From: Patescibacteria group bacterium
Lineage (GTDB): Bacteria > Patescibacteriota > Patescibacteriia > UBA9570
Length of the DNA: 64,000 nucleotides
Assembly: GCA_041665365.1 (NCBI GenBank)
Contig: JBAYIY010000004.1
Location: 8,610-72,609 of the forward strand
Direction of reading: 5' to 3'
The translations under genes were made by a program, and so were the position numbers. The notes under the pieces were generated by a model. The model did not search any database and had not been told where the DNA came from. It worked only from the letters and a program-made list of their open reading frames with translations. Shown in pieces: positions 1 through 62,895 of this stretch; position 1 is the stretch's first letter, and every line of letters begins with the position of its first letter.

Positions 1-3000
1 AAAGTAACTGTACCGAGTGATGGTAGCGTGGTAGATGGTTCATATGCCTTTTCTGAAGATAAAACTGCAGCGGTGTTTTATCCAGCCAGTGATTATCAGG
101 CTGATACTACTTATAAGGTAGAATTAACCAGTGCCATCGAAGGGATTAACCCAGATACCGGCGCGGTCTATAATTTATCCTCCAGTGATTCAAAACGGAT
201 TTTTACTTTCAGCACCGGTACCACCACCGATGATATTCCACCAACTGTTAATGTGGCCGAACTGGCACCATTTCCAGCTGACGGTGATGTGGATATTTGT
301 TTGAACCCAACACTGCAGGTATCATTTTCGGAAAGCCTTGATCCGGCATCGCCATCTGATAATAATTTTTGGTTATTCAAAGCCGCTGACGTTGTAGCCG
401 ATACATTAGATATTGGTAACATTCGGTTAACCAGTATTGGTGGGGAATCGGATGATACTATTGTTACCTCTCCGCAAGACCAATTAGATAGTAACACTGA
501 GTATGGCATTAGTTTGTATAGTGGTGACCCAGCGACCGATCAGTTTACTGGCGCCATTTATGATACATGCGGCAACCCGTTGAGTGGTAATTTTGATGTT
601 CTGATGACAGGTAGCCCAACGGATGATTATATCGATTCGGCTGCCACCACCTATCCCTGGACATTTACGACCGGCGATCAACCATATTGTGTACCGAATA
701 TTGATAGTGTCAGCCAAGAAGATTCTTACTACAGTGAAGATCAAGCACCAATCGGTACCAGTGGAGATGAAGATACTGGTGTTACCACTTTAACCGGTGA
801 TTATCTTTATCCATTTTATGATGTTAATTTTAACGATAATATCTCGGCAGCTGGAATAAATTGTTTTGATACTGGGCACGATACTACATTAGGTTGTTTT
901 GTTAGCCATACTGGTAGTTCCAGTATTTCTTTGCGCTTACCGGTGGCCAGTCAAACCGGGGTAGTGAGTGTGGAAAATAATAATGGTGCCGATGATTCAC
1001 CGCAAGTGGCGGTAGTAGCTTCACCTTATCTGCGTAGTACTTCACCAGCCACTGGGCCAGTTGGACAGTATATTACCATTCGCGGAAAGCATTTCGGTGA
1101 TTATGATCCAGCTGTATCTGGCAGTGAGCGTGGTCAAGTGTGGTTTGGTGATGTGGCCGGTGAATTCGTTTGTGCGGATGGTTGGGACGATACCAGTATT
1201 ATTGTGCGTGTACCAGTGGGGTTAAATGTTGATGATACACCAACCATTCAAGTTATTACAGCCGCCGGTAAATATAGTAATCAATTAAGCTTTACCGTAA
1301 CCGACGGTACACCTGGCCCTGGTTTGTGTGAGTTAGTACCAAAGTGTAGTGATACTGGAGCCGATAGTGTCACGGCCTTAGGAGAAAATTTTGGAGATGA
1401 TGGTGCCGTTTATTTTCAATCATCTTCTGGTGAGGTTAATATTGGCACGGTGACTAGTTGGAATGTGTATAATGAAACCTATCTTAGTCAGACCGTTGTC
1501 ACGGATGGCACGCCGGTAACTGCTCTAGATACGTATAGTTTTTCAGTTGGGTCTACTGGTATTAGTAATAGTTTAGATTTTAAAATTTCCTGTGCCGAAC
1601 CGCCTAGTTTATTTGAGTCTTATAGTTGTGATCTCAGTGCCGGCACCTATTATCTACCAAATCCAACCAGTTCGAGTGATAATGCCTGTGTTAATAGTGT
1701 GATTGATTTTGCTTTCACCACGACTATGGATGATACTGCGGTTGAATCTGGCGTGGCGATTTATAAGTGTAATAATACAGAACCATTCGATGATACAACT
1801 TGTACGCCAATTACTGGTGAGTATATTAGCGGTTTTCTCGATTCAGCTTATGGTGCCGGCAGTACGGCTAGTGAATATTCCTTCACTCCGAGCGGTGGTT
1901 TTTCGGCTGGTTACTACTATAAAGTAACTATACCATCAAGTGTGACTGACAGCACTGGTGTGGGCTTAGATAGTGATTACGCCTGGAATTTTAAAGTGCG
2001 AGATGATACTAGTGCCTGTAAAGTAGATTCTTTATCAGTTTCACCAGCCACGGAACGTGTCACGGGTTATGACGCGGTGGATGCGTGTCTGGATAATCAT
2101 AATTATAAAGACACAAGCTATTCATTGCGCGCTCGTCCGGCCACGGCTGATTGTTTGATGCTTGATGCGGTGGGGGATTACACTTGGGATATAAGTGAAC
2201 CTGCTATATTAACTTTTGGTAGCAATAGCACCACCGGTAGCGATGTCGTTGGTAGTAGTCTGACTCATACTACAACTAATGGTTATGATACTGTTTGTTT
2301 ACAGGGAGCCGGCGAAACCAATGATGGTTTATCTACTGTCTCTGCCTCCATCGAAGGTGTGTCAGATTCAGCTGATATTGAGGTTGATTTTGGTTATTGT
2401 ACGCAAGATAGTGATTGCTATACGGCCGATTGTCGTGATACCTATTGTGATGCCACCACGTCACATTGTGCTCCAGATGTAATTGGATTTACCCCAGCTA
2501 CGGTTGGAGCCGGTGGTTGTTTAACTTTAAATGGTTGCTATTTTGGTAGTGATCAAACTCAATCGGGTTATTGTACGTGTACCAGTTTAAAAGCAGACGG
2601 TGAAACCTGCACGATTGATGAAGGTGATGTGGCCTGTTTGTTATCTGGTGGTATTTCCAGTTGTACTTTAAATGAGGAATATTGTGAGTTAGGTAGCACT
2701 TGTACCACTGAATCAGCCGAGGCTAATTATGATTTAGGTTATTTTAGGGGTTGTGACTGTATCATGACTGATGGTACTAGCCGCACTTGTCGTGTGGAAG
2801 ATGGTGCTACCCAATGTGTGGTAGCTGGTTCTGAAACTTGTTCAGCTACTTCAAGTACATTTACCGCCGGTGGTGCTGGCAGTATCAGTTTTGGTAGTAC
2901 TACCGCCTCAACTCCAGCTTCAACCTACTGTGGTGACGTTTGGAATACCGATCAAGTAGTGGTACAAGTTCCAGAAGATGGTTCAGTTACCCCGGGCACC

Positions 3001-6000
3001 TACGATGTAACATTACAGAGTTACTACGGATTGTCTGACACCATTGAGGGTTGTGCGGTGGGTAGTGACCCAACAGCTTGTTTATGTAGAATAGAGCCAG
3101 CTCGTGGCCAAGAAGGTACCATCGCCGATTTATTTGGTGACCACTTTGATCTTTTCACCACCAATCGGCGAGTCACTTTTGCTGGTTCAATCAGTCGTGT
3201 TCAGACTGATGGCACTGAAACTTGGACTAGTGCCAATGAAATTAACAACTCTATCGTACCAGAAGGGGCTGTTAGTAGTTCTGAAGGTGTGCAATTGGAG
3301 GACGATACTTCTACCAGTAACGCTTTGAATTTTAATGTGAGTTGTAGTTCCGATTTTGATTGTGCCACCGGTTGTTGTAACGCCGGGCAGTGTGCAGCGG
3401 CCGAGCAGTGCAATATTTGTACCACTGACAGTGATTGTTCTTCCAGTGCTTGTACTTCCACTTGTGTGGCCAGTACTTGTGCGCCGGTTATTACTAAGCT
3501 TAGTCCAGATCATGGTGCCGTCGGGCAACCGGTAACTATTCAGGGTTGTCATTTTGGGTCTTATTATGATCCCGCCAGTTCCACTCCGGGAAGTACCGTT
3601 ACCATGGATGGTATTCAAGCCGAGTTAGCCTGTTCAGAAACGCAAGAGTGGAGTAACCGCCAGATTATTGTCACAGCACCAGATGGTATATTTACTGATG
3701 CCACCACTGATTTAGCTAGTGTGCAAGTGCAACAGGTTAGTACAGTGAATGCGGAGTTGATCGCTCAAACCAGCAATGCCGTTGATTTTACTATGGATAA
3801 TAGCTGCTCTGAAGTTGATTTGCCAGTGTTGTGTAATGCTAATCCCGTCTACAGCCCAGTGGCTAATGATGTTACTTTAACCGGTGAGAATTTCCGCGCT
3901 GAAGCTGATGGTTATTGCGCTTGTACTACTAGTTTAGGTGACTGCAAAATCACGGCGGGTGATACCTCTTGTACTCTCACAGAAAGTAACACGTATTATG
4001 TCAATCCGACTGATACCAGTGAAGTTTGTGCTAATGGCAGTTCCGGTCCGGCCACCTCCAATGCCAATACTTTTTACGATGCCACCGTTGGTGCTTGTGT
4101 GTATACCGATACCACTGATACAACTATTACTTGTCAGATTACAACTGGGTCGGCCAGTTGTGTAGTAACAAATTCAGACACGTGTTATGCCGATCGGATT
4201 GATACCAGTTTGAAATGTTCAAAAGATGTTACCGGTTTTGTATCATTAGATGGTTCTGCTCAATACTATTCAGATCAAGCAGCAATCATAGATTGGACGA
4301 CATATTCCAGTACAAAATACGATACAACTGTGCCGAGTGATAGTGAAACTGGAGATGTCAACGTAATTTCTACCACTCAAAATAATACTCAGTGCGTCAG
4401 TAATGGTCTTGAATTTCCAATTTCTTGTGCCTCGTGTGGGGAATGTAACAGTACCGCCGATCATGCATTGAATTGTGATCTCACCTATGATGCCGCCTTT
4501 GGTAGTTGTACCACCTCAAGTACTGGGTTTTGCCGCGCTCAACCGGATTCATGCTGTAATGTCTCCAGTTGTATCTACGATGATACTGCCACTACTGCCG
4601 TCGATGGTGGTACTTGTGTTGGTCAGCCAGTAGTAGCCTTTACTGATCCGGTTATGGCTGTTCAACCAGGTGATACAAATATTTGCGCCAATGTGCAGCT
4701 ACATGTGAAATTTAGTGAAGGCATGACTACCAGTGCCGCCACTGATACGAGCGATAACTTTGATAAATATATTTTCTTACGCCCATCTTCAGCTGATGAC
4801 ACAGCTAGTGATGAAACAGTGTTGAGCACAATTACTCCAACCAAAACCGGCAGTGAGTTAACTTTAGATCTGACAAAATTATTGGATTATGACACTGACT
4901 ATGAATTGATCATTCGTAGTCAGGATACAATTGTGTCAGGCACAAAGCATCAATCGGGTGTAATTTCAGCCACGACCGGTGCCGCTATTGGCTGTGATGC
5001 GACCATGAGTGCACTCGGTGTGTGTCATGATGGTTATATCAAATACACTTTTACCACTGCATCAGCGGCTGATTATTCGACCCAGTGTGGTCCGGCCAGC
5101 GTAGTATTAGAGGCGGATAGTAGTGACTTTATTGACCATGATTATACCTTTAATGAATCAGGGCAAACGGAAGATATCACCGCTACCACCTATTCCGGTG
5201 ATAGTCAGGCGATTAGTAGAATTGATGATGGTACAGAACCTGGTTTTTCTTGGAGTTATGACTGGACACCAACCTATACCACCTTAGCCGATTTAGAAGC
5301 CGATATCTGTCCGATTGCTGGCATTATTGGTGCCAGTACGGATGTGCCTAATCAAACTCTCACCGCTGATACACCAGATGCTGAAGGTGAACATACTGAT
5401 ACAGTAAAAGTTTCCATCACTGGAGATGGTTCCGTTGAACAAGGTTGGAATAATTCTTTTACCGATAGTTTATTATACGATTTTCAATACTGTGATCCAG
5501 ATAAATTAGTCACTTATAGTAACAGTGATTACAACTTATATTGGTCATACTGTCAGGGTGATATGGCTGAGTTTGATGAGGTGTTTAGTAGAGATAGCGC
5601 TAAAATTACTGAAGAATATGGTCACACGGAAGATTTTATTTATGAAATCGGTTTTAAAGATACTGCTGCGACTACCAATGATGCCACTACTAATAATAAC
5701 TTGATTGTGTTACGGGTTTATCCAAACGATATTGACGGTTCACCAGCTTCACCTTGGGATAGTATCAATCCAGATTTATGGTATATGCTAAATACCAATA
5801 ACCCTTCGGCTACCGCTACTCCAACCACAGTGAATGGTTATGATGCTGTCACAGTCGGTAATACTGTTTATGTGGCGGCCAATAATTTGGATGATCACGA
5901 TGATTCTATAGAGGTTGAGGGGGAGGAAGAAGAAGATCTTAATTATGGTACTTTATCATCTTACATGTTTGTAGTGGCTTACAGTGCCGATGCCTCCAGT

Positions 6001-6672
6001 GCCACGACTGATGTAGTCACGGCTATTTTAGATGGTTTCAAATTTAATCGTAATGAGACATTATCAACCGATTGTGCCTTAGAAAAAGCTAAATTAGTCA
6101 TCGATACCAACCGGGTGACCGACTTAGGTACGATCGCTTATTTATTAAGTAGTTATTATTATCATGATAGTGACGGTAATGGTGTAAATGATTTTCCAGA
6201 TTTAACCAGTGGTTCATATATTACCGGTTTAACCACGTCAGTTTGGCCATCTTGGGATGCAGTGTTAGGCGATGCGCTGGGGCAGACGTTGTTTACGGAT
6301 CCGGTTAATACTTTTGCCGATGCAACCACACAGTGCCCATACGCGCCGGACGATAATAAATACTATGATGCCTCTGGCTCATGTTGGGATCCGGTAAACA
6401 AAAAATTCTTCGGGCCAACTGATTCTCATGTTTATCTTTATGAATATCAATCGGCTGATCAATTTGCTTTATATTCCAAGCTAGATTATACCGGTTTAGG
6501 TAGTTGGGGACAGAGTTACTCGTATGATCCATGCACGACATATTCTGATGGTACCACAGCTGTGTCTACTAAAATCAGTGGTTTTTCCGGAGGGTGTTCG
6601 ACCTTTAACTACCTGGTCAATAATACATTGACGACAGATAATACCCTGTATGCCAAACTCTTTGCCGATTGA
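1..6672 (+). CDS. Giant secreted/cell-surface protein (over 2214 aa). The reading frame is open from base 1, so the gene is probably 5'-truncated by the window edge. It is Thr/Ser/Asp/Gly/Cys-rich with repeated IPT/TIG-like modules and many CxxxC pairs.
   Basis: The track ORF 28..6672 is in frame with bases 1-27 with no stop. Repeated '...GQ(Y/P)(I/V)TI(R/Q)G.HFG...' segments resemble IPT/TIG domains. The composition is extreme in Cys and Thr. No TM segment is seen in the part covered. Confidence 0.6.
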   Translation, partial: KVTVPSDGSVVDGSYAFSEDKTAAVFYPASDYQADTTYKVELTSAIEGINPDTGAVYNLSSSDSKRIFTFSTGTTTDDIPPTVNVAELAPFPADGDVDICLNPTLQVSFSESLDPASPSDNNFWLFKAADVVADTLDIGNIRLTSIGGESDDTIVTSPQDQLDSNTEYGISLYSGDPATDQFTGAIYDTCGNPLSGNFDVLMTGSPTDDYIDSAATTYPWTFTTGDQPYCVPNIDSVSQEDSYYSEDQAPIGTSGDEDTGVTTLTGDYLYPFYDVNFNDNISAAGINCFDTGHDTTLGCFVSHTGSSSISLRLPVASQTGVVSVENNNGADDSPQVAVVASPYLRSTSPATGPVGQYITIRGKHFGDYDPAVSGSERGQVWFGDVAGEFVCADGWDDTSIIVRVPVGLNVDDTPTIQVITAAGKYSNQLSFTVTDGTPGPGLCELVPKCSDTGADSVTALGENFGDDGAVYFQSSSGEVNIGTVTSWNVYNETYLSQTVVTDGTPVTALDTYSFSVGSTGISNSLDFKISCAEPPSLFESYSCDLSAGTYYLPNPTSSSDNACVNSVIDFAFTTTMDDTAVESGVAIYKCNNTEPFDDTTCTPITGEYISGFLDSAYGAGSTASEYSFTPSGGFSAGYYYKVTIPSSVTDSTGVGLDSDYAWNFKVRDDTSACKVDSLSVSPATERVTGYDAVDACLDNHNYKDTSYSLRARPATADCLMLDAVGDYTWDISEPAILTFGSNSTTGSDVVGSSLTHTTTNGYDTVCLQGAGETNDGLSTVSASIEGVSDSADIEVDFGYCTQDSDCYTADCRDTYCDATTSHCAPDVIGFTPATVGAGGCLTLNGCYFGSDQTQSGYCTCTSLKADGETCTIDEGDVACLLSGGISSCTLNEEYCELGSTCTTESAEANYDLGYFRGCDCIMTDGTSRTCRVEDGATQCVVAGSETCSATSSTFTAGGAGSISFGSTTASTPASTYCGDVWNTDQVVVQVPEDGSVTPGTYDVTLQSYYGLSDTIEGCAVGSDPTACLCRIEPARGQEGTIADLFGDHFDLFTTNRRVTFAGSISRVQTDGTETWTSANEINNSIVPEGAVSSSEGVQLEDDTSTSNALNFNVSCSSDFDCATGCCNAGQCAAAEQCNICTTDSDCSSSACTSTCVASTCAPVITKLSPDHGAVGQPVTIQGCHFGSYYDPASSTPGSTVTMDGIQAELACSETQEWSNRQIIVTAPDGIFTDATTDLASVQVQQVSTVNAELIAQTSNAVDFTMDNSCSEVDLPVLCNANPVYSPVANDVTLTGENFRAEADGYCACTTSLGDCKITAGDTSCTLTESNTYYVNPTDTSEVCANGSSGPATSNANTFYDATVGACVYTDTTDTTITCQITTGSASCVVTNSDTCYADRIDTSLKCSKDVTGFVSLDGSAQYYSDQAAIIDWTTYSSTKYDTTVPSDSETGDVNVISTTQNNTQCVSNGLEFPISCASCGECNSTADHALNCDLTYDAAFGSCTTSSTGFCRAQPDSCCNVSSCIYDDTATTAVDGGTCVGQPVVAFTDPVMAVQPGDTNICANVQLHVKFSEGMTTSAATDTSDNFDKYIFLRPSSADDTASDETVLSTITPTKTGSELTLDLTKLLDYDTDYELIIRSQDTIVSGTKHQSGVISATTGAAIGCDATMSALGVCHDGYIKYTFTTASAADYSTQCGPASVVLEADSSDFIDHDYTFNESGQTEDITATTYSGDSQAISRIDDGTEPGFSWSYDWTPTYTTLADLEADICPIAGIIGASTDVPNQTLTADTPDAEGEHTDTVKVSITGDGSVEQGWNNSFTDSLLYDFQYCDPDKLVTYSNSDYNLYWSYCQGDMAEFDEVFSRDSAKITEEYGHTEDFIYEIGFKDTAATTNDATTNNNLIVLRVYPNDIDGSPASPWDSINPDLWYMLNTNNPSATATPTTVNGYDAVTVGNTVYVAANNLDDHDDSIEVEGEEEEDLNYGTLSSYMFVVAYSADASSATTDVVTAILDGFKFNRNETLSTDCALEKAKLVIDTNRVTDLGTIAYLLSSYYYHDSDGNGVNDFPDLTSGSYITGLTTSVWPSWDAVLGDALGQTLFTDPVNTFADATTQCPYAPDDNKYYDASGSCWDPVNKKFFGPTDSHVYLYEYQSADQFALYSKLDYTGLGSWGQSYSYDPCTTYSDGTTAVSTKISGFSGGCSTFNYLVNNTLTTDNTLYAKLFAD

Positions 6673-7237
6673 CCCTAATGTTGAAGATATCTTCGCTGAA
6701 TCTGTTAATGCCGCAGCGGGAGCGGAACCAGAGCCAGTTGCGCAACCATATGAACCGGTAGTTTATCCCCGATCACATCGTAAGCTATGGATTATTGCCA
6801 TAGTGCTAGTAGGTTTGCTACTATTAGGTGGTCTAGTGGTTGGTGGTTATTTATATTGGCAGACATTGCCTAAACCACAATCACCCGTTCCTACCAATAT
6901 CAATACCAACACAAACATCAATACTAATATACCAGTCACGGTTCCTATCAATACCAACACAAACATCAATACTAATACCAATATTAATGTTACTAGTGTG
7001 GATACCGATCATGATGGATTATCAGATGAGGAAGAATTGGTGTTAAATACCAATCCAAAAAAGAAGGATACCGATGAAGATGGATTATCCGACCGTGAGG
7101 AAGTACGGGTTTATGATACTGACCCGCGTAATCCTGATACGGACGGTGATGGCTACACTGACGGTGATGAAGTAACCCACTTCTATGACCCTAATAATCC
7201 TGATTCAACTAAACGTTTGTTCGATTTACCAAAATAA
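6650..7237 (+). CDS. Membrane-anchored protein with Asn/Thr (NTNTNINTN) low-complexity repeats and three thrombospondin type 3-like Ca-binding repeats (DxDxDGxxDxxE).
   Basis: Single TM 'LWIIAIVLVGLLLLGGLVVGGYLYW'. Motifs 'DTDHDGLSDEEE', 'DTDEDGLSDREE', 'DTDGDGYTDGDE'. An exact 31-bp direct repeat lies at 6899-6929 and 6947-6977 inside the CDS. Confidence 0.55.
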   Translation: MPNSLPIDPNVEDIFAESVNAAAGAEPEPVAQPYEPVVYPRSHRKLWIIAIVLVGLLLLGGLVVGGYLYWQTLPKPQSPVPTNINTNTNINTNIPVTVPINTNTNINTNTNINVTSVDTDHDGLSDEEELVLNTNPKKKDTDEDGLSDREEVRVYDTDPRNPDTDGDGYTDGDEVTHFYDPNNPDSTKRLFDLPK

Positions 7238-7254
7238 ATAACTTAAATTACATT

Positions 7255-8433
7255 ATGGATTTTCCACAACCACCCCAAGGCGCAGCTACTCCATTTCCAG
7301 CCGCGCCACAACCCACTCCTACTACACCACCGTCTTTTCCGGCCACTCCACCAACCTCACCATTGCCCGCCCCATCATTTCCACCACAACCTGTGCAAAT
7401 TCCAGTGCAAGGGGTAAGCGACGAGCAGGTTTATGCTATGCCAGAAAAATTTTTATCGACTAATCCGGCCGGTAGCAGCCCGAGTAGTGAAAAACCGCCG
7501 CGAAAAAAACTGACCATTGTGTTAATTGTGCTAATAATATTAATGGTGCTCGCTACGATTGGTGGAGTAGCCTATTATTTCTTAGTATTGGCTAAAGCTC
7601 CAGTCACAACCACTACATCAACCACTTCTTCCAAAACAACTTCTACTAGTACTACTAACACAAGTAACAATAATGTTAATGCTGTGAATGCCAGCAATGC
7701 AAACAGTAACACGAATAAAATTAATAGTAATGTCAGTAATGTTAATAATGCCAACACTAATAGTAATACAAATTCAAATACCAATGCTGTTGTTAACACA
7801 AATACCAACGTTAATACTAATGTAAATGCTCCGGTAAATACCAACACGAATATTAGTGTCCCGGCCAAAGACACTGACGGTGATGGTTTAACCAATGACG
7901 AAGAAAAAATTTGGGGAACTAAAGCCGATTTACCTGATACGGATGGTGATGGTTATAAAGACGGTGTTGAAGTAGTCGCCGGTTATGATCCAACTAATGC
8001 TACGAGTGCTGGTAAAATATCTGATAATGCAGCTTTAGTCGATACTTATACAAATAGTATGTATAGTTACACTGTGTTACATCCAAACAAGTGGATTGCC
8101 GATGCCTTAACGGAGGGTGATAATACTGAAATATTATTTACGCCAAATACCCTTGAATTAGCGGGACAGTTCGTGGCGATTAGTGTCACTAGTAATCCAT
8201 CTGGGTTAACTGCCTTAGATTGGTACGTTGAAACCAACAAAGTAGCCGAAACTAGTGTAAAACCGGTGACAACATTTTCCGGTTTAAAGGGTGTCTGGAG
8301 TGCTGACGGTAGTACCGCTTACTTTGTTGATAATGATTATGTCTATGCTGTCAGTTATCGTTATGGCACCAGTGCTGAATTGTTCTTCCCTGATACCTTT
8401 CAGTTAATGGTGAAAAGCTTTTCCTTGAATTAA
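7255..8433 (+). CDS. Paralog of the preceding gene: Pro-rich N-terminus, one TM, a long N/T/S/V low-complexity tract, two TSP3-like Ca-binding repeats, and a C-terminal globular domain.
   Basis: 'DTDGDGLTNDEE' and 'DTDGDGYKDGVE'. TM 'IVLIVLIILMVLATIGGVAYYFLVL'. NTN/NSN repeats. Confidence 0.55.
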   Translation: MDFPQPPQGAATPFPAAPQPTPTTPPSFPATPPTSPLPAPSFPPQPVQIPVQGVSDEQVYAMPEKFLSTNPAGSSPSSEKPPRKKLTIVLIVLIILMVLATIGGVAYYFLVLAKAPVTTTTSTTSSKTTSTSTTNTSNNNVNAVNASNANSNTNKINSNVSNVNNANTNSNTNSNTNAVVNTNTNVNTNVNAPVNTNTNISVPAKDTDGDGLTNDEEKIWGTKADLPDTDGDGYKDGVEVVAGYDPTNATSAGKISDNAALVDTYTNSMYSYTVLHPNKWIADALTEGDNTEILFTPNTLELAGQFVAISVTSNPSGLTALDWYVETNKVAETSVKPVTTFSGLKGVWSADGSTAYFVDNDYVYAVSYRYGTSAELFFPDTFQLMVKSFSLN

Positions 8434-11735: not shown

Positions 11736-11752
11736 GGAACAACAATTAACAT

Positions 11753-11794
11753 AAAACTGGTAGAGACATGCCATGGCATGTCTCTACCAGTTTT
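11753..11794 (+). terminator. 42-nt perfect palindrome (aaaactggtagagacatgcc|atgg|catgtctctaccagtttt) after ftsZ. It is flanked by an A-tract and a T-tract, so it can act as a bidirectional intrinsic terminator. It belongs to the GTAGAGAC palindrome family.
   Basis: Reverse-complement identity checked base by base. T4 follows on the + strand and A4 precedes. Confidence 0.7.
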
Positions 11795-11860
11795 ATGTGT
11801 GTCAATATGTTTTTTATTATGGTTTATTTATGGCAGATGATCTATACTAACTGACGAACT

Positions 11861-15308: not shown

Positions 15309-15394
15309 ACACCTCCCCAACCCTCCTATCGTAGGAGGGGGTAAGAAAAATTATCTTGCTCCCTTCCTAGAATAGGAAGGGCGGGGGGATGGTG
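15309..15394. repeat. GC-rich double-hairpin element (CCTCCCCAACCCTCCT + hairpin + GTAAGAAA + hairpin + GGGGGG). Second copy of the MITE-like element found at 22395-22516.
   Basis: Hairpin 1 is 15321-15339 (ccctccta/tcg/taggaggg). Hairpin 2 is 15361-15381 (cccttccta/gaa/taggaaggg). The shared block 'acctcccc(t)ccccaaccctcct' and the 'gtaagaaa' linker match the copy at 22402. Confidence 0.6.
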
Positions 15395-19924: not shown

Positions 19925-21219
19925 ATGGTTATAAAAATTATCCCTAATATACACACAAGCGCTAAACTACCAACTTGAAAATGATAACTAGATAACAAGC
20001 CAAAGGCTACTTGCATGCTAGTTGGAGCATTGTTGGGGGCAAGTAAACTAGCCAAGGCAATATCGCCAAACACAAAGGCGATGCCTAAACTTATCACCTG
20101 GCTAATAGTCGGTTTTAACCAGTTAATTTCTAACAGATATTGTTGTAAGTAATTAGCACCTAATATTTTGGCTGTGTTATGAAAATATTCCGGTAGTTGC
20201 CGATAACTTTGGGCGATGAAATAATTTGTGATCGGTACTAATCCGATTACCAGAGCTAACCAGAGGCTTAATTTACTTTGGCCTAATATCAGTAACCAGA
20301 TAAAACCCAGTGTTACTGGTGATAAGGTTAATAATAAAACACTGATTTTAAAGGAAGATTTTAATAATAGACTGATAAATAAAGTTGTTATAATAACAGA
20401 ACTGGCTAACATTGTTGTCCAAAGAATACTTAGAAAAAAATGGCTGTGAGTTAATAAGGTCAGTGTTTTAAGATTGGTTTGACTAATTGTTTTAAAAACA
20501 AAGAATGCAAGAGGAGTTAGTACTATTATTGCTAAACAGGCATGAATAAAATGAATGAAGAATGAAGAATGATGAATGATGGTGGGGGGCGTAAAAGATA
20601 GTTGGGGTTTAAGATTGGGACGAATTATTAATAAAATAACCAGACTGAAAATCACAGTCTGCAAGCCGGTGATCCAACCAACTAGGTTATAATCATGATA
20701 GAGGATAATGCGTTGATACAGCCACACTTCGAGAGTTTGGGCATGGATACCACCTAGTTGTAAGGGTAGTGCAAAACTAGTGATACAGTACAAAAAGATG
20801 ATACCGGCTACACCTAGGATAGTTGGTTTGAGTTGTGGCCACCACAGGGTAAGAAACAGTTGTTTATTGTTCGCTCCTAACACCCGAGCCGACTCTTCGG
20901 TATGAAATGAGATAGCCTGCAAAGCAGAATGAATCGCAAGATAAGCCAGAGGGATATTGTAGTAGAGGTGGGCCAGTACCACCATGGTTGGTGTATAGAG
21001 CAGTGACGAGCCCGAAAAGAGCTGAATAAAACTGGTACTCACTAGGATAGGGGGAAGAAAAACAGGTAGATAGAAAATAGGAAATAGGAAAGTTGGGGGA
21101 TGGGCACGAGTAGCACGCTCAAACAGGGCTAGACTACCACCTAGAAAAATTGCCAATAGGGTAGTTAAACTAGCTTGCCAGAGAGTAAACCAAATTACAG
21201 ACCAAAGCTGGTATGCCAT
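19894..21219 (-). CDS. ABC transporter permease (polytopic)
   Basis: At least ten hydrophobic helices. Sits in an operon with the ATPase and the binding protein. Confidence 0.7.
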   Translation of the reverse strand: MAYQLWSVIWFTLWQASLTTLLAIFLGGSLALFERATRAHPPTFLFPIFYLPVFLPPILVSTSFIQLFSGSSLLYTPTMVVLAHLYYNIPLAYLAIHSALQAISFHTEESARVLGANNKQLFLTLWWPQLKPTILGVAGIIFLYCITSFALPLQLGGIHAQTLEVWLYQRIILYHDYNLVGWITGLQTVIFSLVILLIIRPNLKPQLSFTPPTIIHHSSFFIHFIHACLAIIVLTPLAFFVFKTISQTNLKTLTLLTHSHFFLSILWTTMLASSVIITTLFISLLLKSSFKISVLLLTLSPVTLGFIWLLILGQSKLSLWLALVIGLVPITNYFIAQSYRQLPEYFHNTAKILGANYLQQYLLEINWLKPTISQVISLGIAFVFGDIALASLLAPNNAPTSMQVAFGLLSSYHFQVGSLALVCILGIIFITICSTSRLLRR

Positions 21220-22232
21220 TGTTCTAGGTAAGGTGTGTAATTATTTTGTATAGTAATTTCATCAAGTGGTAAGCTGGTTTTTAAATTCGGTGTGATAATT
21301 TGTGAATAGGCATCAGGCAGTGTTACCTCATTTTTCAAAACAGGGAACATCCATTGGGTAGTAGGGATAGCTTGTTGGACAGGTTGACTCAACATGTAAT
21401 CAATAAACTGTTGTCCTAGAGTTGTGGCTGCACTACCATGCACCAAGCCGACACCTTCAACTTGTGGTAAATAACCATCTGTTATGGGAATTGTTTTGTA
21501 ACGGTCGGTTTGTTCTTGATCAATGTGGTACGCCGGACTGGTAACATAACTTAATACAATCGGAGCTTGATCATTTAAAAACATTGAGTAGTAAGCCGTG
21601 TTCCAATCTGGCGCTACTGTTAGAACTTGATTGGATAGTTTATCAAAAAATTCTTTGGCTTGGTCATCGCCTAAAGCCTGATGTGCCCAAAACAATAATT
21701 GTGTACCGGGGGAGGACAAACCGGGTTGTTCGATAATAATTTTTTTATTGTAAGCTGAATTATTTACTAATTCCATCAAGCTAATCGGTTCAGAAAAGGT
21801 TAGTGCCTGACTATCATAGACGAAACTAACATAACCATAATCAAACGGGGTCATAGTAAAATCATTATCAAACCGGAGTCGTTTTGGAATAGCACTAGCT
21901 CTGGTTGGTTTATATGGATCTAGTAGATTATTAGTTTTTAAATCAGGTAGGTTAATGTTATCTAACCCTAACACTACGTCGGCCTTAGGATTATTTTTCT
22001 CCGCGATTAATTGATTTAACATCGCCCCAGTATCAGTAAAACTAACAATATTTAAAGTGATTTGATGATCCTGTTCAAATTGATCTTTAATGGCTGGGAG
22101 TAATCCATAGTCGGCCGATAAGCTGTCGTATGTGTAAACTGTTAATGTAGTCGGTTCGGTGGCCACTGGTGTTGATTTTACACAACCAGTACCAAAAAGA
22201 AATACGGTGAGTAGTATATATATTTTTTTCAC
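21195..22232 (-). CDS. ABC transporter substrate-binding lipoprotein (thiamin/iron/spermidine SBP fold)
   Basis: Lipobox 'LFGTGC'. Size and periplasmic-binding-protein-like composition. The operon order SBP-permease-ATPase fits. Confidence 0.65.
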   Translation of the reverse strand: MKKIYILLTVFLFGTGCVKSTPVATEPTTLTVYTYDSLSADYGLLPAIKDQFEQDHQITLNIVSFTDTGAMLNQLIAEKNNPKADVVLGLDNINLPDLKTNNLLDPYKPTRASAIPKRLRFDNDFTMTPFDYGYVSFVYDSQALTFSEPISLMELVNNSAYNKKIIIEQPGLSSPGTQLLFWAHQALGDDQAKEFFDKLSNQVLTVAPDWNTAYYSMFLNDQAPIVLSYVTSPAYHIDQEQTDRYKTIPITDGYLPQVEGVGLVHGSAATTLGQQFIDYMLSQPVQQAIPTTQWMFPVLKNEVTLPDAYSQIITPNLKTSLPLDEITIQNNYTPYLEQWHTSFGL

Positions 22233-22380
22233 AAAATATGTTTATTAAAAATAAAATTCCCAATTTATAGGGAATACAGCCTGTATTCCCTACGCTGGCA
22301 TAACCCAGATCAGGTAATGTAAGGATACTTCTCAGTCCATAAGGACGCTCCTATACAGTGCTATCATATTACCAGTTGAG

Positions 22381-22394
22381 TTATTTTTGGCAAC
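22381..22394. repeat. Direct repeat / target-site duplication copy 1 (ttatttttggcaac). It duplicates the last 14 nt of fpg.
   Basis: Identical 14-mer at 22517-22530, which encodes the fpg C-terminus ...CQK plus stop on the minus strand. Confidence 0.7.
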
Positions 22395-22516
22395 TCGAGA
22401 GACCTCCCCTCCCCAACCCTCCTCTCCTTCCTCAGGAGAGGAGGGAGTAAGAAAGAAAAGATTTATAAAAAGCTCCCCTCTCCTTCTGAAGGAGAGGGGC
22501 AGGGGGAGAGGTCTGT
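22395..22516. mobile_element. MITE-like 122-bp GC-rich element. It has imperfect terminal inverted repeats (agacctcccctcccc / ggggagaggtct) and two internal 11-bp-stem hairpins. It is inserted exactly at the fpg stop codon and flanked by 14-bp direct repeats.
   Basis: Hairpin 1 is 22417-22445. Hairpin 2 is 22475-22499. Left TIR about 22398-22414. Right TIR about 22500-22515. The 14-bp direct repeats are at 22381-94 and 22517-30. A related copy lies at 15309-15394. Confidence 0.65.
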
Positions 22517-23347
22517 TTATTTTTGGCAACCCGAACAATAACACGTGCCTCGGCCAGCACATCTGGTTTTTTTGATAATCGAACCGCATCTCAAACATGG
22601 TTCGCCCACCCGTTGATAAACTTTACGGTGATTCCAGTAAGAACCTTGTTTACCAGTGACCGAATAAAAATGGCTAAAAGATGTACCGCCAAGTTTGATC
22701 GCTTCTTGCAAAATGGTTCGAGCCGCTACGTGAATGGCTTTACGCTCAGACAGTGTCAAGGTTTTTACGCGCCGCATTGGTTTTACTTTAGCTTGCCAGC
22801 AAATATCATCACTATAAATATTACCAATGCCGCCAATTAATTGTTGGTTTAATAAAACTGCCTTAAGTGATGTGTTACCGTGACTTTTTAATTGTTGATT
22901 AAAGTACGCAAAAGTAAAAGTCGGTTGAATGGGTTCTATTCCTGGACGTTTTTTTATAAAATACTCGGCTAAACCAGTTGGGCTATAAAGCTCTACATAA
23001 CCAAACTTACGCATATCTTGAAAAAATAATTGGGTTTTATCGCTGAACATGAATTGTACTCGGGTATGGTTGTTCGGTAACGGCAGGGGTTCTTTTTTTT
23101 GATAAAGTAACTGCCCGGTCATTTTGAGATGAATGACAAAACTATAACCTGAAGACAGCTTTAAAACCAACCATTTGGCTTTTCTGTCTACAGCAGAGAC
23201 GGTTCTTTTCAGAACATATTTACGTAATTCTACTGGTGTGCCCTTAAACTTTTTGGCTTCATGAACAATAACCTTGGTGATAGTTTTACCAACAATATGT
23301 GTTCGTAAGCCTCGCGCTAATGTTTCAACTTCAGGTAATTCCGGCAT
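22517..23347 (-). CDS. mutM: Formamidopyrimidine-DNA glycosylase (Fpg/MutM; the Nei alternative is not excluded)
   Basis: N-terminal 'MPELPEVE' (catalytic Pro2/Glu3). C-terminal Zn finger 'CLRCGSIIKKTRCAGRGTCYCSGCQK'. Start set at the MPELPEV Met. Confidence 0.85.
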   Translation of the reverse strand: MPELPEVETLARGLRTHIVGKTITKVIVHEAKKFKGTPVELRKYVLKRTVSAVDRKAKWLVLKLSSGYSFVIHLKMTGQLLYQKKEPLPLPNNHTRVQFMFSDKTQLFFQDMRKFGYVELYSPTGLAEYFIKKRPGIEPIQPTFTFAYFNQQLKSHGNTSLKAVLLNQQLIGGIGNIYSDDICWQAKVKPMRRVKTLTLSERKAIHVAARTILQEAIKLGGTSFSHFYSVTGKQGSYWNHRKVYQRVGEPCLRCGSIIKKTRCAGRGTCYCSGCQK

Positions 23348-40394: not shown

Positions 40395-41359
40395 TGTCGG
40401 TTATCGTGTCAGGCTCAATTGCGTTCGATCGCATCATGGATTTTCCTGGAAAATTTTCTGACCATATTCTGCCTAATAAAATTCATAATCTCAATGTCAG
40501 TTTTGGTCTAGATAAATTATCCATCGAGTTTGGTGGTACCGCCGGTAATATCGCTTATACACTATCATTATTTGGAGAAAAACCCAGTATTGTTGGTAGT
40601 GTCGGTCATGATTTTGCTCCCTACAAAAAGCATCTTATCAAACACCATATCAATCTTCGGGACATTCGTGTAATTCCAAAAGAAACCTGTGCCACCGCTC
40701 ACATTATTACCGACCAAGGTGATAATCAAATAGCTGGTTTTCATTTCGGTGCCATTAGTTATCCGGCCGTGTCAGCACAGATCGTAACAAAACAAACCAA
40801 ATTAGGTATTATAGCGGCTGGTAATCTTGCTGATATGATGAAACTATCCGAGCAATATCGCCATAATCATGTTCCGTTTATTGTCGATCCAGGACAACAA
40901 CTTACCTGGCTAACCGGAGCACAATTAACCTATTTATTAAATGGTGCTCACACCTTGGTGGTAAATGATTATGAACTGGCTGTGGTTCAAAAAAAATTAA
41001 TGTCTGTAGAGACACGCCATGGCGTGTCTCTACAGAATAAATCGTCTCTACAAAATTTGACCCAATTGGTTGTCACCAAAGGTGAAAAAGGCGCCGATTG
41101 GTTTGTGGGTGGAAAACGCTATGTTTTGCCGGTGGCTAAACCCACCCGGGTATTAGATCCAACCGGGGCAGGTGATGCCTACCGCAGTGGCATAATTCTT
41201 GGTATACTCCGCCAGTGGTCACCCGAGCAAGCTGGTCGTGTGGCCGCTTTATGTGCGACGTATGCCATCGAACAATACGGCACACAAAACCACACGTTTA
41301 CAAAAACACAATTTAAAAAACGCTATTATAAAAATTTTAAACATAATATAATTATTTAA
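40394..41359 (+). CDS. PfkB-family carbohydrate/nucleoside kinase, likely adenosine kinase given the metK/ahcY context
   Basis: 'NDYE' (NxxE motif). 'DPTGAGDAYRSG' anion-hole motif. Confidence 0.7.
   Translation: MSVIVSGSIAFDRIMDFPGKFSDHILPNKIHNLNVSFGLDKLSIEFGGTAGNIAYTLSLFGEKPSIVGSVGHDFAPYKKHLIKHHINLRDIRVIPKETCATAHIITDQGDNQIAGFHFGAISYPAVSAQIVTKQTKLGIIAAGNLADMMKLSEQYRHNHVPFIVDPGQQLTWLTGAQLTYLLNGAHTLVVNDYELAVVQKKLMSVETRHGVSLQNKSSLQNLTQLVVTKGEKGADWFVGGKRYVLPVAKPTRVLDPTGAGDAYRSGIILGILRQWSPEQAGRVAALCATYAIEQYGTQNHTFTKTQFKKRYYKNFKHNIII
41003..41036. repeat. 34-nt perfect palindrome (tctgtagagacacgcc|atgg|cgtgtctctacaga) inside the adoK coding sequence, in frame (encodes SVETRHGVSLQ). A duplicated half-arm 'cgtctctaca' follows at 41044-41053.
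   Basis: Exact reverse-complement symmetry verified. Same arm family as 11753-11794. Confidence 0.75.
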
Positions 41360-41365
41360 TCGATA

Positions 41366-41396
41366 GGTAGAGACGTGCCGCCGGCACGTTTCTACC
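41366..41396. repeat. Imperfect palindrome ggtagagacgtgcc-gccggc-ggcacgtttctacc between adoK and ahcY
   Basis: One mismatch in the 14-bp arms. Family core GTAGAGACG. Confidence 0.6.
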
Positions 41397-55714: not shown

Positions 55715-56939
55715 ACAGTTAGCTCAAGCAACTTTACGAGCTTTGCAGCCTGAGCAAATGGTTAAGGTTAATTTACCAAAATTAGGTGTTTATAAACATA
55801 TTTATGTCATTGGTGCCGGTAAGGCCACTTTTGGCATGGCGGTACAAATTAATAAAATGCTCGGCAAAAAGATTACCGCCGGTTATATAAATGTACCAGG
55901 CAATAGCCAACAGGCAATAGGGAAAATTATTGTACAGACGGGGTCACATCCGTTTCCAGATCAAAATACAGTACAAGCTAGTAACAATATATTGAAATTA
56001 GTACGATCTGCTGGAAAAAATGATTTAGTAATTGGCTTGTGGAGTGGGGGAGGGTCGAGTTTGTTTACTATTCCGCGGGCAGGTATCACTTTGCCACAAC
56101 AAGTTGAACTCACTAAAAAATTAATGAGAGCCGGGGCGGATATTATTGAGTTGAACACTGTGCGTAAACATATTTCACAGGTTAAAGGTGGGCAATTAGC
56201 CGCAGTGTGTTCTGCAGCGATGTTGAATTTGATTATTTCTGACGTGATTGGTGACCCGCTAGATGTTATCGCCTCAGGCCCTACCGTGGCGGATGCATCT
56301 ACCACTAAACAAGCCAGGCAAATTCTAAAAAAATATCATATCTATAATAAACCGTTAGAAAAAATTATCTTATTAGAAACTCCTAAAAAGATAAATTCAA
56401 AAAAAGTAAAGAATATCCTAATCGGTTCAAATAAAATTGCTTTAAATTATTTAGTTAAACTAGCCAAACAGAAACAGATCACACCGGTTATTATAACCGA
56501 TCGTTTATCTGGAGAAGCTAGAATTGTAGCTAAGAGATTGTGTCGTTATGCTAAAAAGATTCAAGCTATTAAACAGTTACCGGTTTTATTATTAGCCGGT
56601 GGTGAAACTACAGTGACGGTAAAAGGCAACGGTTATGGTGGGCGTAATCAAGAATTAGTATTGGCGGCTTTACCGCATTTGGCACCCGGTATCAGCCTAT
56701 TATCATTGGCCACCGACGGGGTTGATGGTTTTACACCTAAACCGGTCGCTGCCGCCTTTGGGACGTTTATTGGTGGTAAAGACGCGATTAATCGCGTCTT
56801 TACCACCAATAAATTTTTGGATAATCACGATTCCTATACAATCTTAAACAAATTGCACCAATTATTGTTTACCGGACCAACTGGTACCAATGTGGGGGAT
56901 ATCGTGCTGTTGTTGGTTGAAAAACCCCCAGTCCTGTGA
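55677..56939 (+). CDS. Glycerate 2-kinase (MOFRL family)
   Basis: 'LVIGLWSGGGSSLF' and 'LLAGGETTVTVKGNGYGGRNQE' are MOFRL/GckA hallmarks. Confidence 0.7.
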   Translation: MSVEKNYPIKLLKQLAQATLRALQPEQMVKVNLPKLGVYKHIYVIGAGKATFGMAVQINKMLGKKITAGYINVPGNSQQAIGKIIVQTGSHPFPDQNTVQASNNILKLVRSAGKNDLVIGLWSGGGSSLFTIPRAGITLPQQVELTKKLMRAGADIIELNTVRKHISQVKGGQLAAVCSAAMLNLIISDVIGDPLDVIASGPTVADASTTKQARQILKKYHIYNKPLEKIILLETPKKINSKKVKNILIGSNKIALNYLVKLAKQKQITPVIITDRLSGEARIVAKRLCRYAKKIQAIKQLPVLLLAGGETTVTVKGNGYGGRNQELVLAALPHLAPGISLLSLATDGVDGFTPKPVAAAFGTFIGGKDAINRVFTTNKFLDNHDSYTILNKLHQLLFTGPTGTNVGDIVLLLVEKPPVL

Positions 56940-59665: not shown

Positions 59666-59694
59666 AGACGCGATTAATCGCGTCTCTACAGGAC
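59657..59694. repeat. 38-nt perfect palindrome gtcctgtagagacgcgattaatcgcgtctctacaggac
   Basis: Verified self-complementary. Overlaps the lgt stop codon. Confidence 0.8.
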
Positions 59695-59922: not shown

Positions 59923-59976
59923 ACCCCCTGTCCTGGTAGAGACGCGATTAATCGCGTCTCTACCAGGACAGGGGGT
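59923..59976. repeat. 54-nt perfect palindrome (acccccctgtcctggtagagacgcgattaatcgcgtctctaccaggacagggggt), a longer copy of the 59657 element
   Basis: Verified base by base. Confidence 0.8.
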
Positions 59977-60095
59977 ACCGGGACGTCGGTTATTAATCTC
60001 GGTCTATCTGTGAGCCTTATCCAGGGGACGGTTGGGGCAATGATGCTCTGATCACACTGGGTGGGGTTTGGTCACAAAAACCGAAAGGAGAGGCC

Positions 60096-61835: not shown

Positions 61836-61962
61836 CCAGCCCGAGCCATTAGCGTGTGGCTCGTAAAAGATATCACGCCAGTTTCTCGTCGGTTTGAGCC
61901 ATAGTCATTACTGTGGTTCGCCGACATTCGTGTTTCAACAAACAACAATTCAAACAACAAAT

Positions 61963-61993
61963 TGTAGAGACGTCCCGCCGGGACGTCTCTACA
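61963..61993. repeat. Palindrome tgtagagacgtcccg-c-cgggacgtctctaca between the two high-GC genes
   Basis: 15-bp arms, verified. Confidence 0.75.
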
Positions 61994-62003
61994 GGGAGAT
62001 TTC

Positions 62004-62792: not shown

Positions 62793-62895
62793 TCAAAGAG
62801 TAGTAAGGCTCGATTTGGATAGGTGTGGTAGGCTTGACGCGTTGTCGTCGCCGCCACCCATACATCCATCTCGAGCCTTTTTTCGTATACAAAAT

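What the first reader, a model, noticed from the sequence alone, without database searches (positions are those of the whole stretch)
22381..22530. MITE-like insertion at the fpg stop codon with a 14-bp target-site duplication, and a second family member after nrdJ
The 122-bp GC-rich element 22395-22516 has imperfect terminal inverted repeats and two 11-bp-stem hairpins. It is flanked by identical 14-mers, ttatttttggcaac. The right copy is the genuine 3' end of fpg (CQK-stop on the minus strand). The left copy is a duplicate of it. This is the classic signature of a transposition event. A related element sits right after the nrdJ stop (15309-15394), with the same CCTCCCCAACCCTCCT block, the GTAAGAAA linker and two short-loop hairpins. 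This points to a small non-autonomous mobile element family, or a mobile small-RNA module, in a streamlined genome.
Basis: seen in the sequence. Interest (0 to 1): 0.65.

Follow-up and report, generated by a model that had tools for sequence, protein, structure and literature searches.

The report
BoxC-type triplex repeat pair after fpg
The GC-rich insert after the fpg gene is an inverted pair of a long-known, widespread bacterial repeat (BoxC / intrastrand-triplex motif), and the 14-base duplication around it keeps a neighbouring promoter intact but is not shown to be a transposon footprint.

Summary
An exact 14-mer sits at 22381-22394 and 22517-22530, bracketing a 122-nt GC-rich segment, and a related element follows nrdJ (15310-15394). 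The MITE/TSD interpretation is only partly right.

Each element is an inverted doublet of a three-block unit: pyrimidine arm, loop, purine arm, 3-4-nt loop, mirror-repeat tail. This matches the BoxC / PIT / TMECO intrastrand-triplex repeat described in E. coli and cyanobacteria. The host is a Patescibacteria MAG.

Insertion is real at family level: L128 (filled) versus L129 (empty), and E. coli K-12 versus H105. None of these cases shows a target duplication.

A relative, L124, carries the same 14-nt duplicate of the fpg end in tandem with nothing between the copies. The distal copy holds the -35 box (TTGCCA-16-TAATAT) of the promoter for the TPP riboswitch and thiB operon, which otherwise would lie inside fpg's last codons. 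The duplication therefore rescues that promoter. Whether the element made it is unresolved.

On the fpg strand the element supplies a terminator-like hairpin plus T-run.

One unexpected result: in other phyla these units flank DUF559 endonuclease genes (13 of 14 loci by eye). ORF-less doublets like this one may therefore derive from DUF559 cassettes.

The parts
22517..22530 (-). Proximal copy of the 14-mer: last codons (..GT TGC CAA AAA) and TAA stop of fpg
22503..22512 (+). Unit 2 mirror-repeat purine tail GGGGAGAGGT (third block), after loop CAG
   Evidence: (10/10 mirror positions)
22475..22499 (.). Unit 2 hairpin CCCCTCTCCTT-ctg-AAGGAGAGGGG. On the minus strand it is followed by AGCTTTTTAT, which is terminator-like for fpg.
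22446..22474 (.). AT-rich spacer, beginning with the conserved tail AGTAAGAAA of unit 1
22417..22445 (.). Unit 1 hairpin CCCTCCTCTCCT-tcctc-AGGAGAGGAGGG
22402..22413 (+). Unit 1 pyrimidine tail ACCTCCCCTCCC (complement of the mirror-repeat third block), followed by loop CAA
   Evidence: (11/12)
22381..22394 (-). Distal copy of the 14-mer. It contains the -35 hexamer TTGCCA (22393-22388) of the thi promoter.
   Evidence: same arrangement in L124
22366..22371 (-). -10 hexamer TAATAT with TG extension, 16 nt from the -35 box and 3 nt before the riboswitch hit
   Evidence: position conserved in L124, L126, L139, L140
22270..22362 (-). TPP riboswitch aptamer (RF00059, 62 bits), followed by its terminator at 22275-22256 and the thiB-like gene at 21195-22232
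15310..15394 (+). Second doublet, 9 nt after the nrdJ stop. Unit 1: tail 15310-15317, hairpin 15321-15339, GGTAAGAAAAA. Unit 2 (inverted): hairpin 15361-15381, tail 15386-15394.

Best explanation
The 122-nt segment, and the 85-nt one after nrdJ, are each an inverted pair of BoxC/PIT-type intrastrand-triplex motifs. Each half consists of a pyrimidine arm, a loop, a purine arm, a 3-4-nt loop and a purine tail that mirrors the purine arm. Because the two halves are inverted, their tails look like terminal inverted repeats.

The pair arrived as an insertion just past the fpg stop codon (inferred from relatives). In this lineage the -35 box of the promoter for the TPP-riboswitch/thiB operon lies in the last codons of fpg (TGC CAA read as TTGCCA). 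The only place where an insert harms neither gene is therefore between a complete fpg end and a second copy of that end. The 14-nt duplication provides exactly that slot. The proximal copy finishes Fpg. The distal copy supplies the -35 box at the conserved 16-nt spacing from the -10 box.

I think it somewhat more likely that the duplication is a feature of this locus than a fixed-length target-site duplication produced by the element.

On the fpg strand the insert adds a hairpin plus T-run that should terminate fpg transcripts ahead of the thi promoter (predicted, not shown).

How the family spreads is inferred. In other phyla the same units form the inverted ends of small cassettes that encode a DUF559 (Vsr-like) endonuclease, so ORF-less doublets would be their non-autonomous derivatives.

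The confidence of 0.5 is for the whole statement. Identity as a BoxC/PIT-type doublet alone is about 0.85. The promoter role of the distal copy is about 0.7.
For: Three-block architecture:
- Mirror positions are 11/12, 10/10, 7/8 and 8/9 in the four units, against 9/9 for an E. coli TMECO.
- 36 of 39 mirror positions match overall. None of 20000 tail permutations reach this, and tails fit their own stems better than other units' stems.
- A strict detector finds exactly these 4 motifs in 64 kb, against 0.05 in shuffles.
- The published consensus CCCTCNCCC-N3-6-GGGNGAGGG-N3-GGGNGAGGG, its occurrence as inverted pairs and its strictly intergenic location are in PMC4666352.

Hairpin structure: compensatory changes in 5 of 9 stem pairs across 18 units from many phyla.

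Insertion:
- L128 filled versus L129 empty, with flanks aligned and Fpg 87% identical.
- E. coli hrpB-mrcB filled, empty and collapsed alleles.

Promoter:
- TTGCCA-16-TAATAT with TG in the window, and TTGCCA-16-TATAGT in L124.
- The -10 box lies 7 nt before CTGTATAGGAG in five genomes.

Other points:
- Tandem relic without an element in L124.
- Terminator-like site at 22499-22475 on the minus strand.
- DUF559 link.
Against: - The two 14-mers are 14/14 identical. The L124 relic matches the window relic at 13/14, while the adjacent spacer is only about 45-50% identical. That fits a recent duplication tied to the insertion better than an old neutral relic.
- Only two doublets lie in 64 kb, and relatives carry 0-2 units per 20 kb. 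This is not a proliferating family here.
- No DUF559 gene was found in the window or in relatives' loci.
- Earlier work on E. coli PIT elements reported no promoter or terminator activity (as cited in PMC4666352). The terminator role here rests on the adjacent T-run alone.
- In-vivo triplex formation was not supported by footprinting in that paper.
- No empty allele of this exact site was found.
Confidence: 0.5

Rival explanations
1. Canonical MITE. A DDE-type transposase made cuts staggered by 14 bp at the fpg end, inserted the element and duplicated the target. Only insertions in the register that duplicates both the -35 box and the stop codon survive selection. L124 shows the footprint left after clean loss of such an element.
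For: - The exact 14/14 repeat brackets the insert.
- The L124 duplicate has identical boundaries and period.
- Each genome's two copies agree at position 8 (CAA/CAA against CAG/CAG). This suggests separate, relatively recent duplications of each genome's own fpg end.
- No microhomology is visible that would explain a slippage duplication.
Against: - There is no duplication at copy B, at L128 versus L129 or at the E. coli filled/empty pair.
- 5 nt and 2-4 nt lie between the repeats and the inverted termini.
- 14 bp is unusually long for a target duplication (own knowledge).
- No transposase was found among the 10 window ORFs scanned, and the BoxC literature reports no transposase near these motifs (PMC4666352).
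- Loss of the element that leaves both repeat copies intact is an unusual event in bacteria (own knowledge).
Confidence: 0.27
2. REPIN-like element moved by a single-strand (HUH/Y1, RAYT-type) transposase. It would be an inverted doublet forming a long hairpin, inserted without target duplication and excised precisely. The 14-mer repeat existed beforehand.
For: - Singlets, inverted doublets and tandem arrays all occur. This is the same repertoire described for REPINs (PMC3116915).
- There is no TSD at other copies.
- Precise excision would explain L124.
- Copy B's minimum-energy fold is one long hairpin.
Against: - There is no GTAG or CGTC tag on these units.
- No RAYT was seen in the window.
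- The gene found next to these units elsewhere is a PD-(D/E)XK DUF559 endonuclease, not a Y1 transposase.
- A separate GTAG-tagged palindrome family in the window is the better candidate for a RAYT partner.
Confidence: 0.12
3. Not mobile here. These would be locally evolved regulatory hairpins (terminator, mRNA stabiliser or intercistronic processing signal), conserved by selection. Their resemblance to each other and to BoxC would come from shared structural constraints.
For: - The nrdJ-DUF6580 spacer holds such a hairpin in three diverged genomes, with different stems and compensated pairs.
- All single units in this lineage point the same way as transcription.
- Hairpin 2 plus the T-run is terminator-like.
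Against: - The termini and hairpin 2 (including its loop) of window copy B are nearly identical to the element that sits after fpg in L128, which is a different locus in a different genome.
- There is a filled/empty pair with aligned flanks.
- The 16-mer CCTCCCCAACCCTCCT and the tail GTAAGAAA are shared by the two window copies and by units in other phyla, with A preceding GTAAGAAA in 13 of 16 non-Microcoleus units.
Confidence: 0.08

Closest known systems
BoxC repeats, also called PIT (potential intrastrand triplex) elements or TMECO triplex motifs, of E. coli and cyanobacteria (Holder et al. 2015, PMC4666352, which cites Bergler 1992, Bachellier 1999 and Hoyne/Maher 2000)
   Same: - Three consecutive blocks: C-rich arm, G-rich arm and a mirror G-rich tail, with 3-6-nt and 3-nt loops.
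- Strictly intergenic.
- Often found as inverted pairs.
- Very similar sequences in distant phyla.
- Presence/absence and collapse polymorphisms between strains.
   Different: - Stems here are 8-12 bp with more A/T. They are not the fixed 9-nt CCCTCNCCC, so the units do not match the TMECO regular expression itself.
- The host is a Patescibacteria MAG, which is not named in the parts of the paper I read.
- This copy is bracketed by a 14-nt direct repeat.
- It has a T-run that makes one hairpin terminator-like.
REPINs / REP doublets with RAYT transposases (Bertels and Rainey 2011, PMC3116915)
   Same: - An inverted doublet of a short palindromic unit with a spacer, which can fold as one long hairpin.
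- Singlets look like decayed doublets.
- Tandem clusters occur.
- No target duplication.
- Extragenic, often just after stop codons.
   Different: - No GTAG or CGTC tag.
- No RAYT nearby.
- Low copy number in the sequence available.
- The associated gene elsewhere is DUF559.
Bacterial MITEs such as Correia/NEMIS, ERIC, RUP and Nezha
   Same: - Small and non-coding, with inverted ends.
- Inserted next to genes.
- Can carry promoter or terminator signals.
   Different: - Those have TIRs abutting short fixed TSDs (often TA) and a recognisable parent IS. Here the repeat is 14 nt, is not contiguous with the termini, is absent at other copies, and no parent IS is known.
- In Microcoleus the unit rides inside a separate TATAG-ended MITE-like element.

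Membership tests
BoxC / PIT / intrastrand triplex motif (TM) | Three consecutive triplex-forming blocks: pyrimidine arm, complementary purine arm, and a third block that mirrors the purine arm (G.G-C, A/T.A-T) | tested here: met
   Mirror positions are 11/12, 10/10, 7/8 and 8/9. The strict detector finds 4 motifs against 0.05 in shuffles. No tail permutation of 20000 reaches the observed match.
BoxC / PIT / intrastrand triplex motif (TM) | Match to the E. coli TMECO consensus CCCTCNCCC-N3-6-GGGNGAGGG-N3-GGGNGAGGG | tested here: not met
   The window stems are CCCTCCTCTCCT, CCCCTCTCCTT, CCCTCCTA and CCCTTCCTA. They share the layout and the CCCCAACCCTC core with units from other phyla, but they do not match the exact 9-nt blocks.
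BoxC / PIT / intrastrand triplex motif (TM) | Intergenic location and frequent inverted-pair arrangement | tested here: met
   Both elements are intergenic inverted pairs. Five of 18 K-12 loci are such pairs (PMC4666352).
BoxC / PIT / intrastrand triplex motif (TM) | Formation of a triplex by the isolated strand | not testable with these tools
   This needs CD/NMR or footprinting, as done for TMECO in PMC4666352.
MITE | Terminal inverted repeats directly flanked by a target-site duplication of fixed length in all or most copies | tested here: not met
   A 14-nt repeat occurs only at this copy and is separated from the termini by 5 and 2-4 nt. None is seen at copy B, at L128 versus L129 or in E. 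coli.
MITE | A related autonomous element with the same ends that encodes a transposase | tested here: inconclusive
   No transposase was found among the 10 window ORFs scanned. In other phyla, cassettes with the same units at both ends encode DUF559 endonucleases rather than a known transposase.
MITE | Multiple copies per genome | tested here: inconclusive
   Two copies lie in 64 kb. The rest of the 365-kb contig and genome could not be read.
REPIN / REP | Inverted doublet of a palindromic unit that forms a hairpin | tested here: met
   unit 2 of copy B aligns full length to the unit model in inverted orientation.
REPIN / REP | Conserved GTAG or CGTC tag and a flanked RAYT gene | tested here: not met
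   The units carry no tag. No Y1 transposase was seen among the scanned ORFs. The whole genome was not available.

The most novel reading that the evidence does not exclude
BoxC/PIT intrastrand-triplex repeats have had no known origin since the 1990s, and PMC4666352 states that no mobility gene was ever found near them. On this reading they are the terminal repeats, and the ORF-less derivatives, of a pan-bacterial family of tiny selfish cassettes that encode a DUF559 (Vsr-like PD-(D/E)XK) endonuclease. The Patescibacteria doublets in this window would then be such non-autonomous derivatives. The 14-nt duplication would be the repair scar of an endonuclease-initiated insertion.
Probability: 0.4. 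Interest if true: 0.8.

Novelty: new member of a known kind. Interest (0 to 1): 0.5.

Why it matters
Taken alone, the element is an ordinary member of a repeat family that has been described before, though its function remains unexplained. Three things make it more useful than that.

- It extends BoxC-type triplex repeats to a reduced Patescibacteria (candidate phyla radiation) genome. There, each intergenic base is under pressure, and one hairpin position (nrdJ-DUF6580) has been kept in three diverged genomes.
- It is a clean example of a flanking direct repeat that imitates a transposon footprint. Here the repeat is needed to keep both a zinc-finger C-terminus and an overlapping promoter intact. 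That is a caution for TSD-based calling of mobile elements in compact genomes.
- Following the family outward showed a strong and, in the library searched, unreported association with DUF559 endonuclease genes. This makes the old question of where BoxC/PIT repeats come from directly testable.

Tried and rejected
- Rfam, at gathering and at E up to 10: only the TPP riboswitch scored, and the elements gave only weak microRNA-hairpin noise. The known-RNA-family reading was rejected.
- tRNA/tmRNA scan: nothing found.
- Metagenome scan for the empty-site junction GGGTTGCCAAAAATAACTCAAC: 0 hits.
- Metagenome scan with the copy-B termini, CACCTCCCCAAC-N60-90-GGGGATGGTG: 6 hits, all chance matches inside coding sequence.
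- Viral contig scan with the unit pattern: 0 hits.
- Literature searches by sequence strings gave nothing relevant. Elhai et al. 2008 on small dispersed repeats is not held in the library.
- Pfam scan of 10 window ORFs for a transposase: none found. This is not exhaustive.
- tblastn for DUF559 in the window and in relatives' loci: none found.
- Ideas considered and dropped: attC/integron site, integrase att repeats, G-quadruplex as the main structure (the three-block mirror symmetry fits a triplex better), and SD-sequestering hairpin (spacing to start codons is 15-25 nt).
- No relative closer than 72% Fpg, 62% ThiB or 91% FtsZ identity exists in the collections. A near-isogenic empty site could therefore not be obtained.

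Full report
**1. The observation**

TTATTTTTGGCAAC occurs exactly at 22381-22394 and 22517-22530. The right copy is the end of a full-length fpg (NCBIfam equivalog, 268 bits). On the minus strand it reads ..TGT TCG GGT TGC CAA AAA TAA, that is C-S-G-C-Q-K-stop. All 48 relatives also end at the CxxCQx zinc finger, so the insert did not truncate Fpg.

Exact direct repeats of at least 14 nt within 300 nt occur at only three places in the 64 kb. Markov simulations give 0.115 per window.

The 122-nt segment between the copies folds into an outer stem and two hairpins (-64.3 kcal/mol, z = -4.2). The 16-mer CCTCCCCAACCCTCCT recurs once, 12 nt after the nrdJ stop, in an 85-nt element of the same plan. 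A scan for polypyrimidine/polypurine hairpins finds four in the window, all in these two elements. The same filled fpg site is present in three independent assemblies, and in one of them the contig breaks inside a hairpin loop.

**2. Context**

An Rfam scan shows a TPP riboswitch at 22270-22362 on the minus strand (62 bits), upstream of a thiamine ABC-transporter binding protein. On the minus strand the order is:

- fpg stop
- element
- distal 14-mer
- riboswitch
- thiB-like gene

A consensus scan flags TTGCCA-16 nt-TAATAT with a TG extension at 22393-22366. The -35 hexamer lies inside the distal 14-mer, and the -10 box ends 3 nt before the riboswitch hit. The same scan flags hairpin 2 followed by AGCTTTTTAT as terminator-like on the fpg strand. 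Copy B has no terminator-like signal.

The organism is named 'Patescibacteria group bacterium' (MAG). Its nearest named relatives are Candidatus Kerfeldbacteria.

**3. What the elements are made of**

Each element consists of two units in inverted orientation. A covariance model of the unit aligns the right half of copy B full length on the opposite strand.

A unit is a C-rich tail, 2-3 nt, a pyrimidine arm, a loop, a purine arm, and then AGTAAGAAA or similar. Read on the G-rich strand, the tail mirrors the purine arm:

| Unit | Mirror positions |
|---|---|
| Window unit (1 of 4) | 11/12 |
| Window unit (2 of 4) | 10/10 |
| Window unit (3 of 4) | 7/8 |
| Window unit (4 of 4) | 8/9 |
| E. coli TMECO motif | 9/9 |

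Further points:

- No permutation of the tails out of 20000 reaches the observed 36/39.
- Tails fit their own stems better than other units' stems.
- A strict three-block detector finds exactly these four motifs in 64 kb, against 0.05 in shuffles.

This is the definition of the BoxC / PIT / TMECO intrastrand-triplex repeats. Those are intergenic, highly conserved across distant bacteria, abundant in E. coli and cyanobacteria, often found as inverted pairs, of unknown function, and associated with local genome variability (PMC4666352).

**4. Distribution**

- Ninety-two are from Microcoleus, Tychonema and relatives. There the unit sits in the centre of a larger TATAG-ended element, sometimes in tandem.
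- The rest come from Polaromonas, Rhodanobacter, Thiothrix, an alphaproteobacterium, Singulisphaera, Phycisphaeraceae, Emticicia, Paludibacter, Rikenellaceae, Vampirovibrionales, Gastranaerophilales, Chamaesiphon and others.

The hairpin is supported by compensatory changes in 5 of 9 pairs. The base before GTAAGAAA was left free in the pattern, yet it is A in 13 of 16 non-Microcoleus units. The tail is therefore truly conserved.

**5. Relatives of this genome**

The closest Fpg homologues are only 66-72% identical.

*Presence or absence after fpg.* L128 carries a two-hairpin element immediately after its fpg stop. Its termini (CACCTCCCCAAC ... GGGGATGGTG) and second hairpin, loop included, almost equal window copy B. 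Its sister L129 (Fpg 87% identical) has the empty site with alignable flanks. Insertion and loss therefore do occur in this lineage. No flanking duplication is visible there. The orientation relative to fpg is opposite to the window's, so these are independent events.

*The nrdJ-DUF6580 spacer.* It holds one unit in L124, one in L126 and a doublet in the window, each with different but paired stems. L124 has a further unit between the riboswitch terminator and thiB.

**6. The 14-mer**

L124 keeps the fpg-riboswitch-thiB synteny. It reads ..AAT TGT CAG AAA TAA | GTTGCCAGAAATAA | CTAACC... This is the same 14-nt unit with the same boundaries, duplicated in tandem, with nothing in between. Its second copy again provides TTGCCA-16-TATAGT in front of the riboswitch.

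If the relic is removed from either genome, the fpg-internal TTG(C/T)CA falls at the same 16-nt spacing. The ancestral -35 box therefore lay in the Cys-Gln codons of fpg. L126 uses an fpg-internal TTGCCC-17-TATACT instead.

Where fpg is not the upstream neighbour (L139, L140), the promoter region shares only the hexamers and not the 14-mer. The distal copy is therefore a real copy of the fpg end and not a general promoter motif.

Other relatives have neither relic nor element. An E. coli BoxC doublet (hrpB-mrcB) compared across 5426 genomes shows filled, empty and collapsed alleles. It too has no target duplication.

**7. Reading of the 14-mer**

Two accounts remain.

(a) The duplication is a feature of this locus. 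Given a tandem duplicate, the junction is the only position where an insert leaves both Fpg and the thi promoter intact, so an insert found there will always look TSD-flanked. This fits the absence of duplications at every other copy examined, and it fits L124.

(b) A staggered cut of 14 bp accompanied insertion, and L124 lost its insert cleanly. In favour:
- the 14/14 identity within the window
- the agreement of both copies within each genome at position 8 (A in the window, G in L124)
- the 13/14 identity between the two relics, while the adjoining spacer is about 45-50% identical

I give (a) about 0.5 and (b) about 0.27, with the remainder on other routes. Either way the repeat is a true duplication of the fpg end whose distal copy has a job. 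It is not by itself proof of transposition.

**8. An unexpected association**

In Polaromonas the unit overlaps the 3' end of a 133-aa ORF, and an inverted unit overlaps its 5' end. In a Rikenellaceae contig a 122-aa ORF lies between two doublets. Both ORFs are DUF559 (PF04480; E = 7.5e-37 and 6.1e-31). They are the only DUF559 genes in 1.17 Mb of fetched loci.

As an independent test, the Polaromonas DUF559 core, free of unit-encoded residues, was searched against PLSDB plasmids and gave 37 records.

- Twelve regions were fetched. By eye, eleven have such units next to the ORF, most on both sides: Deinococcus, Azospirillum, Sinorhizobium, Neisseria, Synechocystis, Pseudanabaena, Sphingomonas, Picosynechococcus, E. 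coli, Photobacterium and Qipengyuania. A Pseudomonas aeruginosa plasmid does not.
- The strict detector scores 12 of 14 DUF559 loci, against 5 motifs in 175 kb of Patescibacteria sequence.
- In Deinococcus and Synechocystis the layout is [C-tail, hairpin, AGTAA..] - DUF559 - [hairpin, G-tail]. This is the window doublet with a gene in the spacer. The Deinococcus cassette sits between paaD and paaZ.
- In E. coli K-12, ycjD (DUF559) lies next to fabI (envM). By my recollection, not checked here, this is the region where BoxC was first described. Published TMECO no. 9 lies between the two genes.

The 25 papers in the library that mention DUF559 do not link it to repeats. PMC4666352 states that no mobility function was ever found near these motifs. 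DUF559 belongs with Vsr and a group I intron homing endonuclease in the PD-(D/E)XK superfamily (PMC3424549).

That the endonuclease moves the units is an inference, not a result.

**9. Verdict**

- The element is a new member, in a candidate-phyla-radiation genome, of a known repeat kind: the BoxC/PIT triplex motif, in inverted-pair form.
- The 'classic TSD' reading is not established and is probably not a property of the family.
- The local effects are the likely consequences here: a terminator-like signal for fpg, and preservation of the thi promoter by the duplicated -35 box.
- The DUF559 link is the part worth following up.

Noticed in passing
L007:5190-5610; L110:481-1135; L141-L152 (plasmid loci); L153 (E. 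coli K-12 1350500-1351700): DUF559 (PF04480) endonuclease genes from at least six phyla are flanked by the same C-rich triplex/hairpin units, often as inverted ends of a cassette of about 0.5 kb. This holds for 13 of 14 loci by eye and 12 of 14 by a strict detector. I found no report of this in the searchable literature.
   Followed up: partly
L124:10870-10911: Tandem 14-nt duplicate of the fpg 3' end (TTGTCAGAAATAA|GTTGCCAGAAATAA) with no insert. The second copy supplies the -35 box of the thi promoter.
   Followed up: yes
window 59657-59694, 59923-59976, 61963-61993, 62896-62955, 56766-56813, 11749-11798, 41003-41036, 41366-41396, 63728-63755: A second repeat family: perfect palindromes built on GTAGAGACG...CGTCTCTAC, up to 60 nt. 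They carry GTAG ends like the GTAG-tagged REPs described for cyanobacteria and proteobacteria (PMC3733652). No RAYT gene was looked for beyond 10 ORFs.
   Followed up: partly
window 60000-62800: An island of about 62% G+C in a 41% G+C genome. It holds two long ORFs (579 and 262 aa) without Pfam hits, is bracketed and interrupted by the GTAG palindromes, and is followed by a RhuM-family gene (62825-63718). It looks like foreign DNA.
   Followed up: partly
window 22270-22362 (-): A TPP riboswitch with a terminator-type expression platform (22275-22256 plus T-run) controls a thiamine ABC transporter operon. It is conserved in L124, L126, L139 and L140.
   Followed up: yes
L004-L123 (Microcoleus, Tychonema, Kamptonema loci): In Oscillatoriales the unit sits in the middle of a roughly 100-nt element with TATAGCAATCC...GGATTGCTATA ends. 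This element is present in many copies and sometimes in tandem arrays with a period of about 69-100 nt.
   Followed up: no
L154-L156 (E. coli hrpB-mrcB spacer): The K-12 BoxC doublet is absent in about a third of 5426 complete E. coli genomes. In some it has collapsed to a single hairpin by deletion between the two hairpins. No target duplication is seen at the filled site.
   Followed up: yes
window 28-6672 and 6650-8433 (+): A 2214-aa ORF and its neighbours contain internal direct repeats (for example at 6898-6995 and at 7133-7201/7933-8001). These are probably repeat-domain surface proteins.
   Followed up: no
L126 versus L127: The identical Fpg protein (P0006) is found on two contigs with different downstream genes: the thiB operon on one, an unrelated 466-aa gene on the other. 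This indicates rearrangement right after fpg between close strains.
   Followed up: no
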